DNA from: Escherichia coli
GTDB taxonomy: Bacteria > Pseudomonadota > Gammaproteobacteria > Enterobacterales > Enterobacteriaceae
Direction: 5' to 3' (one strand)
Length of the DNA: 64,000 bases
Assembly: GCF_024298765.1 (NCBI RefSeq)
Contig: NZ_CP101211.1
Shown: piece by piece, positions 54,001 to 63,000 of the stretch
Position numbering within the stretch: the first letter of the stretch is position 1
Layout: each line of letters starts with the position of its first letter
Program-made: the position numbers

Positions 54001-57000
54001 TATCGGCAACCATCACATCTGATTTGCCCGGGATCGGTTTTTTCCCGTTTTCAGATGCAAGGACCGCAGAGGAGGTAAAGGCGACAGACAGAGTTGCACA
54101 TAACAGAAGGTATTTTAATTTCATGACTCACTCCATGATTATCAATGATGGTTGCTCAGACACATCATTTATACCATGCCTGTCACCGAATACGAGATCC
54201 CCATATTTTGGCTTTAAATATTATCCAATAGGGTTTCATACACCTGGCTTCTGAAAGCAAGGTTCAAGGAGCTTCAGGGGGAAATCAGATTGTTGTCGAC
54301 CCAGTACTTGTGCAAACCTACCACCCAATTCCTGGAAATGGACGAAAGTTCATGCGCCAGTTCACGACAGCATTCAGGCGTAAAAATACGTATGGGTCCT
54401 GAAGTACCGATATCAACAGACATGATAAACTCCAGAATGTTGCCATGGCATAGGTTGTTTCTCAGCCTGACAATTTCTGCTTCAGGTGTTCTCCCGGCTG
54501 CTACCTTAACCAACATATCCTGCTCGGCTGGAAATGAAAGTAATTCTACCGGCACCCCTTCCTGCTTGGCCTTTCTCAGTAAGGCATTACTCATTACGGA
54601 GATACCCTCCAAGTCCACCAGCTCAGGAGCTGCATGCTGATCGTTAACTGTTGGTTTCAGCATCAGCGACTTCAACGTAACCATGAGTGATGTTTCAATC
54701 CCGTTCAGGAAGCTCGTACAGGCCGGTATCCATAGTTCGTGATGCAACGCCTCGGTTGCTTGTTTAAAGAACCAGTCAATCACGGGGACAGTGTGATAAT
54801 CATAATAGTGATTTATCTCGCTGAATCTTGACATATAAGCATCGTACTCAGCCTGGTCTTCAGGAGATAAAAAATTTGGTGGGAGGGGCATCAGAATCCT
54901 TTCATCCTAGCTTGTATACCTTCTTCGTAGGCCAGCTCGCCATTATCGGTAAAAGATGGTTTTTGGTGTTTGTGACAAAGCTTAATTTTTCGTCAGGCTC
55001 GATAGCGTTACCGGAGAGATTTGATCTTTTCTCTGTAACTCGCAATACTGTTTATACATACAGTATGAGAATTCGAGTGTAGCTATGTCTGTTATCCTTG
55101 AGCACATTAGCAACAAGCCTTACGAAATGGCACCTTTTTTCAGTGATTTACTGAGCTGTGGAGTGATGAGTCCGTGCGCCGGGCATGAAGATAATGAATT
55201 AAATTTGCATGAATATGTAGTCCGTAACCGCCCCTCAACCTTCTTTGTCAGGGCGGCGGGCCTCAGTATGATCAATGCCGGTATCAATGATGGCGCTATT
55301 CTGGTTGTGGATCGGTCTTTAACGGCACGACACGGCTCTATCGTCGTTGCGCTGGTGGATGGAGAGTTCACGGTAAAGATCTTACACACGTATCCTGAGC
55401 TGCTTTTGATGCCTTCTAATCCAGCCTATAAGCCGATACGTGTAAATCCCGAATCCCTTGAGATATGGGGCGTCGTCACCTTTGCACTGAATCAGTTTAG
55501 CCATGTACATGCACGTTGATATTAACGGGGCCTATGCGGCATTTGAGTGTGCGATGGATCCCAAGCTGGCAAAAAAGCCGCTCATCATAGCCAGCAATAA
55601 CGATTCGTCCGTCATTGCAATGAATAAACTGGCTAAAAGCGTTGGTATTAAGCGTGGGACCCCAATTTTTAAGTGCAGGGATTTGATTCAGCAACACCAG
55701 ATCGAAGTCCGGAGCTCTAACTTTACTTTGTATGAAGACTACTCAAATCGCTTCCATGAAACGCTGGAAAGCTTCGCGCCTCAATCGAGTCGATATAGCA
55801 TAGATGAAAATTTCATGTTATTGAAAAACATGAACAAGATAATAGATTATGAAGATTACGGCCGGTTGATCAGAAGTACACTTCTTCATAATCTGTCCCT
55901 TACCTGTGGTGTGGGGTGTTCAAGCACCAAAACCCTGGCTAAATTATGCACCTATGCGAGCAAACGATGGGCAGCTACAGGCGGGGTTGTAGTTTTGACT
56001 GATCAGGCCAGGATCAGGAAGCTCCTGGGCCTTATCAGTACCAGAGAAATATGGGGTATTGGTCAAAAGATCAGTGAACGCCTGTCGGCTTTCGGGATCA
56101 TCACTGCCGGTGATTTTTATAATAGCGACGTTCGCTTTTTACGTAAAAGCTTTGGCGTTGAAATCGAGCGTACCTGGCGGGAACTGCATGGCGAACCATG
56201 TTTCCGGCTGCATGAATCCCCTCCTGTCCGGCAACAGATTATCGTTTCCAGAAGTTTTGGTCAGCGCCTTAATGAGATAGGCAAGCTACATGAGGCAGTT
56301 TCATTTTTTACCGCCCGGGCGGCAGAGCAGCTGCGCAAGGATGGCTCGTGGACCCGTCAAATCACAGTCTTCATTCAGAGCAGCAATTATGCGCAAGGTG
56401 AAAACCGCTACAGCAATTGTGGTATCGAGCCGCTTACCGCTACACAGGACACCCGCGATCTGGTTGATGCAGCCATGACCATCCTGAACCGCATTTACAA
56501 ACCCGGGATAGCGTATGCGAAAGCTGGGGTAATGCTCTCCGCTATGACTGACGGCACAGAGCAACTCAGCCTGTTTGATGAGCGCCCGGCCAGGCCTGGC
56601 AGTCAGGCACTGATGAAAGTTATGGACCGGTTCAATAAAGAAAAGCGCGGAGCTCTGTTTTTGCTGGGGGAAGGCATTCAACAGGATTTTCGTATGAAAC
56701 AGGCCATGCTATCACCGAGATATACGACCCGCTGGGATGAATTACTCGTTGTAAAAGCGTAGCGGCCATGACCGGCATGGCCGTACTCATCAAAAGTGAA
56801 AGTAACTTTAGGCCCCGCGAGCTTTTTCGATTGCGCCCTGCAAAGTTGCTGCGTCCATAGCCCCGGGGATAAATGTGGTAGTCGCCGCATTCGGCTTTTT
56901 CATATTCATAATGATGAAGCCGGGTGTGCCGGTGATCCCAAGCGCTTCGCCCAGCTGCATGTTGCCGGAGATCACGTTTTCATATCGGTTTTTTTCCCTG

Positions 57001-60000: not shown

Positions 60001-63000
60001 TTAATAATTTTTTTCATTTATGCTCCTTGAATCGAGCACTAATATTATCACGCCCAAAAATTCCAGAATTTTGCTTAAACGCTTAAATCAACGGGTAAAG
60101 CCGAAAGAAAGTCGATAGATATATGGGAGAATAGATAAAACGTAGATTCAGTGGAGAAATCGTTGTGTTTACACCACCAGCAGATGATGTGAAACCTATT
60201 CCCGTTCCTGATGAGATTTACACTCAGTGCATTACGGATGCCGCCCGCTTCTTCGGAATTGATGCCGAACTGGTTTTTACGTTGTTTGACAATGAAGGCG
60301 GTAAGGTTGGTACTTTCAGCAGGAATACTAACGGCACTTATGATATTGGCCCGATGCAGATCAACTCATCCAATCTGCCTGAAATAAAAAAGCATTTCCC
60401 GACTGTAACGTGGCGGGTTCTGGCTTACGATGCTTGCGCTAGTTTCTGGGTTGGAACATGGTGGCTCTACAGAAAAATTGTTGATCGCAAGGGCAATGTG
60501 TTTGAAGGGATTGCAGATTACAACAGCAAAACCCCAAAGGTACGTGCAAAGTACATATTTAACTTCATGGTAAAGTACAATCGCCGGATCCAGCAGCGTA
60601 ACGGGATGGGTGAGCTTTATCAATGGACCCAACAACCTCCTCGATACAATGGCCATATAGCTAAAAATGTCCCGGAGCAAAACCCGACTCCTGTTGTTAA
60701 ATAAATTCAACCTGATATTACAGAAGATCATCGAGTAGCTTGGGTACCCCCCCGCAAAAAATTCGCATAGACTCAGGGGTAATAAATTGTCTTTTTCTGC
60801 AAGAAATATATTTAAGATTCTCTCTTCTTTCTTGATGCAGAAAAGCCCTCTTCATGAAGAAGTATGTGTTCCTGAAGAAACAACAGCTGGTTTATGGGGC
60901 CCTCTCCCTGATTCGCATGTCGTGCTTTTCTTAGATTTCGATGGGGTTTGTCACAGGTGCAAAAATGAAACCTTTGAGCGAATGCCATTGGTGGAAAAAT
61001 TACTGGATAAATGCCCTTCCATGGTGATTGTCATCTCCAGTTCGTGGCGTGAATGTGCCAGTATAACTTACCTGAAATCTCTTTTCCGGCTACCTTATAG
61101 AGACAAAGTCATAGGTGCTACCGATTCGGTATATTTAAAACCTAATCAGTCAGGTGTGCGGGCTGCTGAGTGTGAGGACTTTGTATTTTCACATCGAGTT
61201 AAAGCATTTATCTGCCTTGATGACGACGAATCATTATTCCCGGTCGGTTATCCACATTTGCAAAAAACCAATTATTACACCGGCCTCACCGAATCTGATC
61301 TTGCAGCTCTTAACACCAGGTATCATCTGCTTATGAAACGTTGGGCTTCCTGAATTAAAGTAACTTTTACGGAGAGCATGCCCGCATTATCAGTTCTATG
61401 CTTCTCCATTTCTGCCCCGGGTCAAAGCATTGCACAGTTGGAAGAAAACATGCCGGTCTCTTAAGCTTGCTGCTCAGTTTGGTTCCGGTGCTGAAAAACC
61501 TGCCAACGGTGCTTTAGGAATTCAGTATTGATGGGTTTACGCAGCGGCTTAATAAACTCTCCTTGATATGCCGCTAAATCATGATCTACCGCCAAAGCTT
61601 CAGCGAGAATGTTAACCTCCAACGTCACCGGATGAATGGCAATCATGTTTGCGTCGAAAAGATCGTGTATATCATGGCGTAAGAGCAACCCATTTGTATA
61701 ATGGTCTACTCCTCCGTTACGATGCTCCATCAGATGAGCAGCCTCAGTGCGCTGGCGCAGTCTAGAGCCTGTAATCACACATTGGTCATAACAGTTGTTG
61801 CGGACGGCTTCTGCAAATGAGGCCTGATCTGGTCGTGTCTCGACAGTTGTCTTACTACCCTTACGCTTACCCGGTACAGTAGTTTCATCAGGAATATTCG
61901 GCTGAAGCTCCTTTTCTTCTATACCATCAGTCTTCATAGCGACCATAATCGCGGCCGGTGGAGATTTAGGCTGATCTTCCTGCGATCTTTCGCGGCCACC
62001 AACTGGATACCCTAGAAAACCCTCAATGATCTCTAGTGGAGGTAATGTAGCGTTTGAACGTGCATAAATAGCGAACTCTGCGGCACGTCCGCCGGGAATA
62101 TATCTACGTACCAGTATTGGAAGAGAGGCTTCTTCATCTGGTTCCTCTTTTTCCGACAGGATTATTCGTTCGGTGAGACGGGCTGAATTTTTTTTCATTT
62201 CACTCAACAGTCTATTGCGTTCTTTTACCTTTCGGTCATTATCCTCCAACATCTTACGATGACTAACCTTAGCCAGATGGTCTTCCAGTTCCTGTATATA
62301 TTCGGGATCGATAGTATCAATTAGACCGAACGCCATCAACCGCTCCCCCCTTGTTTTACAAGATTCTAGCCGAACGCGAATGTACTCCTTACGCTTGGCC
62401 ATCAAATGTTCTTTTTGTTTTTTTTCTCGAATTACACGGAGCTGAGTATTGTAATTAGAATAAACGGTTTCGCTATTCTGCTCTGTCTCTAGAGCAAATT
62501 TTTGTAGGTGTTCACGTAGTTTTTTACGGGTATTTTTGGGGGCATGCATTACGGTACGCTCAATGTATGAGCCTGTGCAGCGTAAAGAAAGTACAGTTTC
62601 AGCATGGGAATAACCAGCATTGAGACGATAGCGGGCAATTTTAAGCAAATTATTAAAGTGTGCACCATTACATATACCTAGTTCTTCCAAGACACGACGT
62701 TCTCTATCATTAATAGATGGATGGTTAATATCTTTTACTTTGTTTGCCATGTCCTGTGTCTCAGTGCCTATTCAGCCGGAACATCTACTACATAAAGAAC
62801 GAGATTGTACAGAAATCAGCTAAGTTTATGAATAAAAAAGGCCGCAAATTTATACTTTGCGGCCTTCACTGTTTAACACCATATTTTAGTAAATACGTTT
62901 AATTTTCATTAGGTTATATTTGAAACTCACCTACCTTTTATTTTCATTAAGCCACTGATCCGCTTTATCGACACGTGACTGGTAAGGCTCATTTGTGTTG

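What the first reader, a model, noticed from the sequence alone, without database searches (positions are those of the whole stretch)
56808..60704. Cluster of periplasmic redox and cell-wall genes on the backbone
DsbA-like (CIYC) and DsbC-like (CGYC) oxidoreductases, a lipoprotein, two small exported proteins and a lytic-transglycosylase-like protein are clustered. Such sets commonly support assembly of conjugative type IV secretion machinery, but no tra/trb genes lie in this window, so their partner system is not visible here.
Basis: inference. Interest (0 to 1): 0.3.

Follow-up and report, generated by a model that had tools for sequence, protein, structure and literature searches.

The report
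IncHI2 plasmid conjugation-helper envelope gene block
This is the well-known six-gene block of IncHI-type resistance plasmids (two disulfide-bond enzymes, a cell-wall cutter, a lipoprotein and two small proteins) that sits beside the plasmid's own mating genes and most likely helps build its DNA-transfer machine, so it is an ordinary backbone feature.

Summary
The stretch is 100% identical to more than 500 sequenced IncHI2 plasmids (MOBH relaxase, F-type mating-pair system).

The partner system is visible in the window. The last 355 codons of trhG, a TraG_N-family transfer gene, occupy 62931-64000 on the minus strand, and trhH and trhF follow just outside.

The same six-gene order is kept in R27-like IncHI1 plasmids and three more divergent IncHI-like elements. 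In those three it directly abuts TraG_N, TraH and (where the contig reaches) TraF. A Klebsiella plasmid keeps a reduced four-gene version.

Refinements:
- The "DsbA-like" protein is a BcfH/ScsC-type enzyme with an N-terminal helical extension.
- The DsbC-like protein is a full DsbC paralogue.
- The cell-wall enzyme is a VirB1/TrbN/IagB/EtgA-type lytic transglycosylase with no signal peptide.
- The lipoprotein is a divergent DUF4136 (PelC/LptE-fold) lipoprotein.
- One "small exported protein" is really a two-helix inner-membrane protein. The other is a probably disordered secreted protein with a CX4C motif.

TrhN (32 Cys), TrhU (16) and TrhH (7) of the same plasmid type are plausible substrates. 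Published R27 and Rts1 work supports a conjugation role.

Verdict: already known, low interest. The export route of the signal-less transglycosylase is the one small open question.

The parts
56808..57617 (-). BcfH/ScsC-type DsbA-family thiol-disulfide oxidoreductase, 269 aa. It has an N-terminal hydrophobic segment (residues 9-32, signal peptide or anchor), a helical extension, CIYC at 109-112 and a G-T-P loop. By gene order it corresponds to R27 R0135 ('dsbA').
   Evidence: Pfam DSBA 6.5e-20 and Thioredoxin_4 5.6e-13. PDB 7JVE (Salmonella BcfH) E 1.5e-35 over residues 37-268; ScsC 4xvw 1.9e-14. Cys and hydropathy analysis. 75% identity to the IncHI1 homologue, pN 0.14 vs pS 0.77.
57618..57723 (.). 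Intergenic region between the divergently transcribed dsbA-like and lipoprotein genes; presumed promoters.
   Evidence: Sequence. No consensus sigma-70 site was found here.
57724..58335 (+). Lipoprotein, 203 aa, probably outer-membrane. It has lipobox LSG-C17, Gly at +2 and the conserved motif GCGYHF. It is a divergent DUF4136 member with a PelC/LptE-like core and an inserted beta-hairpin of about 65 residues (86-150). By gene order it corresponds to R27 R0134.
58357..58379 (.). Short inverted repeat between the convergent lipoprotein and 140-aa genes; a possible weak bidirectional terminator.
   Evidence: Arms of 11 nt, 91% complementary. Not picked up by the terminator scan.
58395..58817 (-). 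Two-helix inner-membrane protein, 140 aa. The conserved N-terminal motif is RATGxPDKxYLxDPVI and the conserved C-terminal motif is GDLYRLYDFN. Function unknown. By gene order it corresponds to R27 R0133.
   Evidence: Alignments with IncHI1 and two more distant homologues. Hydrophobic segments. No Pfam or NCBIfam hit. RefSeq calls a truncated 86-aa version.
58851..59243 (-). Secreted protein, 130 aa. It has a signal peptide ending VFA|AQ, an invariant CX4C at the mature N-terminus, and the conserved C-terminal motif DELAPxRQLKxIRPELV. It is predicted to be largely disordered. By gene order it corresponds to R27 R0132.
   Evidence: Alignment of 11 homologues with invariant C24/C29. AF2 pLDDT 52, pTM 0.12. 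Homologues are found only in IncHI-like elements. A CX4C homologue is also present in the Klebsiella-type plasmid.
59268..60017 (-). Plasmid DsbC paralogue, 249 aa. It has a signal peptide, the DsbC_N dimerisation domain, CGYC at 129-132, a second Cys pair (172/199) and a G-T-P loop. It is the first gene of the apparent dsbC / 130-aa / 140-aa transcription unit. By gene order it corresponds to R27 R0131 ('dsbC').
   Evidence: Pfam DsbC_N 7.4e-14 and Thioredoxin_2 3.7e-16. NCBIfam DsbC 1.4e-52, 178 bits, below the 215 cut-off. PDB 4npb 1.2e-43 and E. coli DsbC 1eej 8.4e-37. 84% identity to IncHI1.
60018..60164 (.). Divergent control region between dsbC-like and slt. TGGGAGAAT (60124-60132) looks like an extended -10 element and is conserved or near-conserved in four lineages. 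The GGAG ribosome-binding site precedes the GTG start. An in-frame TAG at 60132-60134 excludes any upstream signal-peptide coding.
60165..60704 (+). Specialised lytic transglycosylase of the VirB1/TrbN/IagB/EtgA type, 179 aa. The putative catalytic residue is Glu44 (DNEGG); the motifs GPMQIN and DYNS are present; Cys22 and Cys91 are invariant. It has no signal peptide. It corresponds to R27 R0130 ('bfpH, trbN-like').
   Evidence: Pfam SLT 23.0 bits vs 21.3 cut-off. NCBIfam TrbN 7.3e-23 and IagB 1.5e-13. PDB EtgA 7.4e-8, with the Glu and both Cys aligned. It is the most conserved gene of the block (90% identity to IncHI1, pN 0.063). N-terminus comparison.
60787..61353 (+). HAD-domain protein downstream of slt (RefSeq start 60835). 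This is context and possibly co-transcribed with slt. It corresponds to R27 R0129.
   Evidence: Pfam HAD_SAK_2 7.1e-20. Present after slt in IncHI1 but absent from that position in the divergent elements. R0129 is induced at 25 C in R27.
61461..62750 (-). HNH-endonuclease-domain protein lying between the block and trhG. It is probably an IncHI2-specific insertion and not part of the module.
   Evidence: Pfam HNH_2 1.5e-10. Absent at this position in IncHI1 and the divergent elements.
62931..64000 (-). 3' part of trhG (TraG_N-family mating-pair protein, residues 963-1317 of 1317), running off the window. This is the edge of the Tra1 transfer region.
   Evidence: 100% identity over 355 aa to the annotated TraG_N protein of pSTM6-275, followed there by trhH, a TraF-like thioredoxin protein, mobI, the MobH relaxase and TraD.

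Best explanation
The block is the accessory envelope module of the IncHI (here IncHI2) conjugation system. It lies at the outer edge of transfer region Tra1.

Shown:
- It encodes a complete DsbC paralogue, a BcfH/ScsC-type DsbA-family enzyme, a secretion-system-type lytic transglycosylase, a DUF4136-family lipoprotein, a two-helix membrane protein and a secreted CX4C protein.
- The six genes travel together next to trhG-trhH-trhF in every IncHI-like lineage examined.

Inferred mechanism:
- The two CXXC enzymes work with the plasmid's other two CXXC thioredoxin-fold proteins, HtdT in Tra2 and TrhF in Tra1. Together they form and repair disulfides in the cysteine-rich exported mating-pair proteins, mainly TrhN, TrhU and TrhH. 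The transglycosylase and the CX4C protein, each with one conserved Cys pair, may also be substrates. This would make assembly less dependent on the Dsb capacity of each new host.
- The transglycosylase opens the peptidoglycan locally so the trans-envelope complex and H-pilus can be built.
- The lipoprotein, membrane protein and CX4C protein are IncHI-specific helpers of unknown role. The most likely guess is an envelope sub-complex that positions or controls the other components.
For: - Identity and context: 100% identity to over 500 IncHI2 plasmids typed MOBH/MPF_F and conjugative. trhG starts 2.2 kb to the right, inside the window.
- Synteny under saturated synonymous divergence: R27-like IncHI1, Buttiauxella and two kinds of metagenomic contig. 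In the three divergent kinds the block directly abuts TraG_N and TraH (and TraF where the contig extends). A Klebsiella IncHI1B/FIB-type plasmid keeps DsbA-like, CX4C protein, DsbC-like and SLT near TraG_N/TraH.
- Family assignments.
- Candidate substrates on the same plasmid type: TrhN 32 Cys, TrhU 16, TrhH 7, RSP 8. TrhF carries CQFC and HtdT carries CDGC. F-type TraN, TraH and TraV are known to depend on conserved cysteines.
- Literature: R27 R0129, R0130 (bfpH/trbN-like) and R0135 (dsbA) are induced at the transfer-permissive 25 C; bfpH and dsbA are also induced in an htdA mutant. As cited in the Rts1 paper, deleting R27 dsbC lowers transfer about 10^4-fold in a dsbC-null host. In Rts1, the R0135 homologue Orf206 and the SLT Orf248 are needed for efficient transfer and Mpf function. 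In the F-like gonococcal T4SS, dsbC, ltgX and atlA are essential and atlA follows traG.
Against: - No knockout of any of these genes has been reported in IncHI2. The Rts1 paper states that the function of R27 R0135 is unknown and that the R27 SLT has not been analysed.
- The R27 dsbC phenotype appears only without host DsbC, so the enzyme is redundant in E. coli.
- The SXT SLT homologue is dispensable.
- The transglycosylase has no signal peptide, so its arrival in the periplasm is not explained.
- Three of the six proteins have no assigned function.
- Only some genes of the block appear in the published R27 temperature table.
Confidence: 0.8

Rival explanations
1. The lipoprotein and the two-helix membrane protein form an exclusion pair analogous to F TraT and TraS. 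They would block redundant mating, while the Dsb and SLT genes alone serve assembly.
Against: IncHI1 exclusion has been assigned to EexA and EexB, and eexB is listed among Tra2 genes. TM-scores to TraT are only about 0.3. The model lacks TraT's alpha-helical membrane barrel. The sequence family is DUF4136, not TraT.
Confidence: 0.08
2. The block is a host-benefit envelope-stress module, for example ScsC-like copper or oxidative-stress protection. It would be carried like the plasmid's tellurite and metal resistance genes and would be only coincidentally near Tra1.
For: The DsbA-like protein also matches copper-sensitivity suppressor ScsC proteins (4xvw 1.9e-14, 4gxz 4.4e-10). IncHI2 plasmids carry ter genes. 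The R27 dsbC mutant has no phenotype in a wild-type host.
Against: The block keeps strict linkage to traG/H/F across very divergent elements. It includes a secretion-system-type transglycosylase. R27 homologues are co-induced with tra genes. No ScsB/ScsD-like partner is present in the block.
Confidence: 0.07
3. The oxidoreductases mainly serve another plasmid-encoded surface structure, such as the large Ig-like RSP protein or a fimbria-like adhesin. This would parallel BcfH, which sits in a fimbrial operon.
For: The closest solved relative, BcfH, is encoded in the bcf fimbrial operon (established knowledge; structure and naming). IncHI plasmids encode the exported 1434-aa RSP with 8 Cys.
Against: RSP itself is described as a conjugation factor, so this is a variant of the main explanation rather than a true alternative. 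No fimbrial usher or chaperone genes are seen near the block.
Confidence: 0.05

Closest known systems
R27 (IncHI1) genes R0130-R0135 next to Tra1: bfpH/trbN-like, dsbC, three hypotheticals, dsbA
   Same: Same six genes in the same order and orientation, next to trhG-trhH-trhF. Protein identities are 90% (SLT), 84% (DsbC), 58%, 45%, 69% and 75% (DsbA-like). R27 homologues are induced under transfer-permissive conditions.
   Different: IncHI2 has an extra HNH gene between the HAD gene and trhG. The mapping of R27 ORF numbers to the middle four genes is inferred from gene order only.
Thioredoxin-fold proteins of F-type T4SS: F TrbB/TraF, R27 DsbC/HtdT/TrhF, SXT S054, gonococcal DsbC, Rts1 Orf206/Orf212, IncA/C DsbP
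   Same: These are plasmid-borne CXXC periplasmic enzymes that back up host Dsb proteins for cysteine-rich Mpf components. Loss reduces transfer or secretion, sometimes only in dsbC-null hosts. DsbP matches the DsbC-like protein at E 3.7e-12.
   Different: The protein here is a full-length DsbC paralogue with the DsbC_N domain, unlike TrbB, which does not dimerise through its N-terminus. It shares only 24% identity with the plasmid's own HtdT.
Salmonella BcfH (PDB 7JVE) and trimeric ScsC proteins
   Same: DsbA-type catalytic domain preceded by a long N-terminal helical extension, with CXXC and a Thr-Pro loop. E 1.5e-35 over residues 37-268. BcfH is a trimer with both oxidase and isomerase activity.
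   Different: The active site is CIYC rather than BcfH's CSWC. The protein is encoded next to a T4SS rather than in a fimbrial or copper-resistance operon. Oligomeric state and activity are untested.
Specialised lytic transglycosylases of secretion systems: VirB1, RP4 TrbN, F Orf169/R1 P19, IagB, EtgA, gonococcal AtlA/LtgX, Rts1 Orf248
   Same: Small family-1 SLT domain with a catalytic Glu, a GxMQIN motif and a YN motif, encoded beside the secretion genes. In the gonococcal island atlA follows traG. Rts1 Orf248 is needed for Mpf.
   Different: The IncHI1/HI2 enzyme has no signal peptide, whereas a close Klebsiella-plasmid homologue does. It scores well below the TrbN and IagB family cut-offs.
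DUF4136 / PelC / LptE-fold outer-membrane lipoproteins
   Same: Lipobox plus a two-layer alpha/beta core. Remote sequence relatives are Pfam DUF4136.
   Different: This protein carries a polar beta-hairpin insert of about 65 residues. It is too divergent for Pfam to recognise directly. No polysaccharide or LPS-export partner is nearby.

Membership tests
DsbC family (thiol:disulfide interchange / disulfide isomerase) | N-terminal dimerisation domain (DsbC_N) | tested here: met
   Pfam PF10411 E 7.4e-14, residues 32-89.
DsbC family (thiol:disulfide interchange / disulfide isomerase) | C-terminal thioredoxin domain with a CXXC active site, a Thr-Pro loop and a second structural Cys pair | tested here: met
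   CGYC at 129-132. Cys172 and Cys199 and the QGTP loop align with PDB 4npb.
DsbC family (thiol:disulfide interchange / disulfide isomerase) | Scores as the housekeeping DsbC equivalog | tested here: not met
   NCBIfam NF008129 gives 178.3 bits against a cut-off of 215. It is a plasmid paralogue, not the chromosomal orthologue.
DsbC family (thiol:disulfide interchange / disulfide isomerase) | Isomerase activity kept reduced by DsbD | not testable with these tools
   Needs biochemistry or genetics. As I recall it, Elton et al. 2005 reported DsbC-like activity for the R27 homologue, but the paper could not be opened.
BcfH/ScsC-type oligomeric DsbA-like proteins | DsbA-type thioredoxin domain with a helical insertion and CXXC | tested here: met
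   Pfam DSBA 6.5e-20; CIYC at 109-112.
BcfH/ScsC-type oligomeric DsbA-like proteins | Long N-terminal helical extension that mediates trimerisation | tested here: inconclusive
   The alignment to BcfH starts at residue 37 and covers its N-terminal region. The oligomeric state itself was not modelled or measured.
Specialised (VirB1/TrbN/IagB/EtgA-type) lytic transglycosylases | SLT domain with catalytic Glu, GxMQIN motif and YN motif | tested here: met
   Pfam SLT 23.0 bits vs 21.3. Glu44, GPMQIN and DYNS align with EtgA. TrbN 7.3e-23 and IagB 1.5e-13.
Specialised (VirB1/TrbN/IagB/EtgA-type) lytic transglycosylases | Sec signal peptide for export to the periplasm | tested here: not met
   The protein starts MFTPPADD with no hydrophobic segment, and an in-frame TAG lies 33 nt upstream. 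The same holds in four other lineages. The Klebsiella-type homologue has MTRLFFGAALFATLTVNANA.
Specialised (VirB1/TrbN/IagB/EtgA-type) lytic transglycosylases | Encoded within or beside the secretion-system genes | tested here: met
   It lies 2.2 kb from trhG here and immediately next to TraG_N in the divergent elements.
DUF4136 lipoproteins (PelC/LptE-like fold) | Lipoprotein signal with lipobox Cys | tested here: met
   LSG-C17 is invariant in 13 homologues.
DUF4136 lipoproteins (PelC/LptE-like fold) | Recognisable sequence or fold similarity to DUF4136 | tested here: met
TraT surface-exclusion lipoproteins | Alpha-helical membrane barrel plus extracellular ring domain; sequence similarity to TraT | tested here: not met
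   The model has only two short helices and a long beta-hairpin. TM-score to TraT is about 0.3. TraT architecture is described.
IncHI Tra1-associated accessory block | Six-gene order dsbA-like / lipoprotein / 2-TM / CX4C / dsbC / slt adjacent to trhG-trhH-trhF | tested here: met

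The most novel reading that the evidence does not exclude
The signal-less transglycosylase reaches the cell wall by an unconventional route that depends on the IncHI-specific partners in the block, or on the T4SS itself. One version is holin-like release through the two-helix membrane protein. Another is capture by a ring of the hairpin-bearing DUF4136 lipoprotein.

Consistent observations, none of them a test:
- Five lineages have the signal-less enzyme together with the membrane protein and the lipoprotein.
- The one lineage whose enzyme has a Sec signal lacks both partners.
- A wider clade of signal-less relatives exists next to topoisomerase and helicase genes on other elements.
Probability: 0.12. 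Interest if true: 0.5.

Novelty: already known. Interest (0 to 1): 0.15.

Why it matters
IncHI2 plasmids are major carriers of mcr, ESBL and carbapenemase genes. Plasmid-borne disulfide enzymes and a dedicated cell-wall cutter may be part of what lets their large F-type transfer machine assemble in many hosts. The block itself is a long-sequenced backbone feature present in over a thousand database plasmids, so finding it here adds nothing new.

The useful by-products are small:
- corrected gene models for two genes that RefSeq truncates;
- a fold and family assignment (DUF4136, PelC/LptE-like) for the lipoprotein;
- recognition that the 'DsbA' is a BcfH-type enzyme;
- the observation that the transglycosylase lacks any export signal.

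Tried and rejected
- Pfam and NCBIfam scans of the three small proteins, even at E up to 10, gave nothing.
- AlphaFold of the CX4C protein gave an unusable model (pLDDT 52), so no fold search was run on it.
- The afdb50 fold library was unavailable.
- Elton et al. 2005 and Hemmis & Schildbach 2013 could not be opened. Statements about R27 DsbC rest on their citation in the Rts1 paper and on my recollection.
- Literature searches for IncHI2-specific mutagenesis of these genes, for 'HtdT', and for signal-less T4SS transglycosylases were unproductive.
- I first assumed that the experimentally studied 'R27 DsbC' might be HtdT. The Tra2 annotation shows htdT is a separate gene, only 24% identical to the DsbC-like protein here.
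- I considered that the lipoprotein might be EexB. This was rejected because eexB is listed among Tra2 genes.
- I looked for a hidden upstream signal-peptide exon or frameshift for the transglycosylase. All three frames upstream are closed or non-hydrophobic in four lineages.
- The consensus promoter scan found no sites.

Full report
**What is in the sequence**

- A 269-aa DsbA-family protein (minus strand; CIYC at residues 109-112).
- A 203-aa protein with a lipobox (plus strand; LSG-Cys17).
- A 140-aa protein and a 130-aa protein (both minus strand).
- A 249-aa DsbC-like protein (minus strand; CGYC at 129-132).
- A 179-aa SLT-domain protein (plus strand; GTG start).

Pfam confirms DSBA (E 6.5e-20), DsbC_N plus Thioredoxin_2 (7.4e-14 and 3.7e-16) and SLT (23.0 bits against a cut-off of 21.3). 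The three remaining proteins match nothing.

**Where it comes from**

The stretch 56500-61000 is 100% identical to over 500 plasmids and at least 95% identical to over 950. Nearly all are typed conjugative, and the annotated example pSTM6-275 is typed IncHI2A, MOBH and MPF_F.

In pSTM6-275 the block lies between umuDC and, to the right, a HAD-domain gene and an HNH gene. The Tra1 transfer region follows: a 1317-aa TraG_N protein (TrhG), trhH, a TraF-like thioredoxin protein, mobI, the MobH relaxase and TraD.

The window's last ORF (62931-64000, minus strand) is residues 963-1317 of TrhG at 100% identity. The statement that no tra gene lies in the window is therefore wrong, and the partner system starts 2.2 kb from the block. 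The rest of the window (1 to about 53.3 kb) is an IS26-rich resistance region plus backbone hypotheticals, and no T4SS domains were found among the ORFs I sampled.

**Is the clustering meaningful?**

The same six genes, in the same order and orientation, occur in several lineages.
- R27-like IncHI1 plasmids.
- A Buttiauxella contig.
- Two kinds of metagenomic contig.

In the last three kinds the block directly abuts TraG_N and TraH, and TraF where the contig reaches that far, with no HAD or HNH gene between. A Klebsiella IncHI1B/FIB-type plasmid keeps a reduced version: a DsbA-like protein, a CX4C secreted protein, a DsbC-like protein and the SLT, again near TraG_N and TraH.

Between IncHI2 and IncHI1, synonymous sites are saturated (pS 0.68-0.78) while non-synonymous differences are low.

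| Gene | pN vs IncHI1 |
|---|---|
| SLT | 0.063 |
| DsbC-like | 0.092 |
| DsbA-like | 0.141 |
| Lipoprotein | 0.174 |
| CX4C protein | 0.266 |
| 140-aa protein | 0.368 |

All six are therefore real genes under purifying selection, held together for a long time.

The full-length gene models, 203 aa with the lipobox and 140 aa with a conserved N-terminus, are the conserved ones. The RefSeq annotation of the IncHI2 record truncates both.

**What each protein is**

*DsbA-like protein.* Its best solved relative is Salmonella BcfH (7JVE, E 1.5e-35 over residues 37-268). Next come the ScsC proteins and a Com1-like '27 kDa outer membrane protein'. BcfH is a trimer with thiol-oxidase and isomerase activity, and it oligomerises through a long N-terminal helix. 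The protein here shares that N-terminal region, the CXXC motif and the G-T-P loop. It has one N-terminal hydrophobic segment (residues 9-32) that could be a signal peptide or an anchor. The Klebsiella-type homologue has a longer N-terminal extension with a hydrophobic stretch, which looks like an anchor.

*DsbC-like protein.* It is a complete DsbC: E. coli DsbC 1eej scores 8.4e-37 and 4npb scores 1.2e-43, with the second Cys pair and the Thr-Pro loop aligned. It falls below NCBIfam's cut-off for the housekeeping enzyme (178 vs 215 bits), so it is a plasmid paralogue.

*SLT protein.* It matches TrbN (7.3e-23), IagB (1.5e-13) and EtgA (7.4e-8), with the catalytic Glu, the GPMQIN motif and both cysteines aligned. 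That places it with the secretion-system-specialised enzymes.

*Lipoprotein.* AlphaFold gives a confident model (pLDDT 88.8). It has a PelC/LptE-like alpha/beta core plus a beta-hairpin of about 65 residues.
- Foldseek: PelC E 5e-5; TraT 6e-3 with TM-score about 0.3.

A profile search of 1.8 billion representatives found 80 relatives. The remote ones are Pfam DUF4136 above threshold. The lipoprotein is therefore a divergent DUF4136 member. Gly at +2 suggests outer-membrane sorting under the E. coli rule (established knowledge).

*140-aa protein.* It has two hydrophobic helices and conserved tails at both ends. The Arg/Lys-rich stretch before helix 1 suggests both tails are cytoplasmic.

*130-aa protein.* It has a signal peptide, an invariant CX4C at the mature N-terminus and a conserved C-terminal motif. 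It is predicted to be disordered (pLDDT 52).

**Why a conjugation role is the best reading**

The same plasmid type encodes cysteine-rich exported mating-pair proteins: TrhN with 32 Cys, TrhU with 16, TrhH with 7 and RSP with 8. It also encodes two further CXXC thioredoxin-fold proteins, HtdT (CDGC, in Tra2) and TrhF (CQFC, in Tra1). HtdT shares only 24% identity with the DsbC-like protein here, so they are distinct genes. Conserved cysteines of F-type TraN, TraH and TraV are known to matter.

Published work points the same way.
- In R27, R0129, R0130 (bfpH/trbN-like) and R0135 (dsbA) are induced at 25 C; bfpH and dsbA are also induced in an htdA mutant, alongside tra genes.
- As cited by the Rts1 study, deletion of R27 dsbC reduces transfer about 10^4-fold, but only in a dsbC-null host.
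- In Rts1, Orf206 (the homologue of R0135) and the SLT Orf248 are needed for efficient transfer and mating-pair function.
- In the F-like gonococcal system, dsbC, ltgX and atlA are essential, and atlA follows traG.

The same Rts1 paper notes that the function of R0135 is unknown and that the R27 SLT is unanalysed. The role of most of the block is therefore inferred, not shown.

**An unexplained detail**

The transglycosylase has no signal peptide. It starts MFTPPADD after a GGAG ribosome-binding site, and an in-frame TAG lies 33 nt upstream. No frame upstream encodes a hydrophobic leader in four lineages, and a fifth lineage also starts MFTPPP.

A close Klebsiella-plasmid homologue starts with a classical leader, MTRLFFGAALFATLTVNANA, followed by AFNPP, the same sequence at which the others begin. 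Other relatives split both ways. Several signal-less 151-153-aa relatives lie beside topoisomerase and UvrD-helicase genes on unrelated elements.

The two invariant cysteines align with those of periplasmic EtgA, which argues that the enzyme works outside the cytoplasm. How it gets there is unknown. The only lineage with a Sec leader also lacks the two-helix protein and the lipoprotein. That is a single observation, not a test.

**Rivals considered**

- An exclusion pair analogous to TraS and TraT is suggested by position and by the TraT fold hit. It is weakened because IncHI1 exclusion is assigned to EexA and EexB, with eexB among the Tra2 genes, by the low TM-score to TraT, and by the missing helical barrel.
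- A host-benefit stress module is suggested by the ScsC similarity. It does not explain the fixed linkage to traG/H/F or the secretion-type transglycosylase.

**Verdict**

The block is a long-known, very widely sequenced IncHI backbone feature. Its partner system is visible at the window's edge, and nothing here is surprising to a plasmid specialist. The signal-less transglycosylase and the three uncharacterised companions are modest open questions.

Noticed in passing
window 62931-64000 (-): The 3' end of trhG (TraG_N family, residues 963-1317) runs off the right edge of the window. The Tra1 transfer region therefore begins inside the window.
   Followed up: yes
window 60165-60704 (+); L002, L003, L004, L006, L014: The transglycosylase lacks a signal peptide in five IncHI-like lineages, while a Klebsiella-plasmid homologue has a classical one. 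It is also the most conserved gene of the block (90% identity between IncHI1 and IncHI2).
   Followed up: partly
L009 8001-8456 and L010 8001-8462: More distant signal-less relatives of the transglycosylase (151-153 aa) sit between a UvrD-type helicase gene and a topoisomerase (Toprim/Topoisom_bac) gene on large unrelated contigs. That is a different, DNA-processing neighbourhood.
   Followed up: no
window 57724-58335 (+) and 58395-58817 (-): RefSeq/PGAP annotation of an IncHI2 record calls truncated versions of these two genes (115 aa and 86 aa), losing the lipobox and the first membrane helix. IncHI1 records carry the full-length models.
   Followed up: yes
window 60787-61353 (+) and 61461-62750 (-): A HAD_SAK_2-domain gene follows slt, as in IncHI1; its R27 counterpart R0129 is induced at 25 C. 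An HNH-endonuclease-domain gene then separates it from trhG. The HNH gene is absent at this position in IncHI1 and the divergent relatives, so it looks like an IncHI2-specific insertion.
   Followed up: partly
window 56700-61500: The consensus scan found no sigma-70-like promoter, where shuffles give 6.8 +/- 2.9. A conserved TGGGAGAAT (60124-60132) lies about 35 nt upstream of the slt start in four lineages and could be an extended -10 element.
   Followed up: partly
window 55085-56762 (+) and 56763-56783: A umuD/umuC (error-prone polymerase V) pair lies immediately left of the block. A perfect 8-bp inverted repeat (CGGCCATG/CATGGCCG) lies between the convergent umuC and dsbA-like genes.
   Followed up: no
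window 1-53300: The rest of the window is a resistance region with many copies of the same 240-aa ORF, matching the IS26 positions in the related record. It also holds an apparent inverted duplication of a three-ORF unit of 301, 412 and 194 aa (29935-32659 on plus, 46690-49414 on minus), a sul-type pterin-binding enzyme and a class A beta-lactamase.
   Followed up: no
L012 (pSTM6-275 1-40000) and L001 31799-32845: The IncHI2 backbone encodes four CXXC thioredoxin-fold proteins in all: HtdT (CDGC, in Tra2), the 348-aa TraF-like protein of Tra1 (CQFC), and the two in this block.
   Followed up: partly
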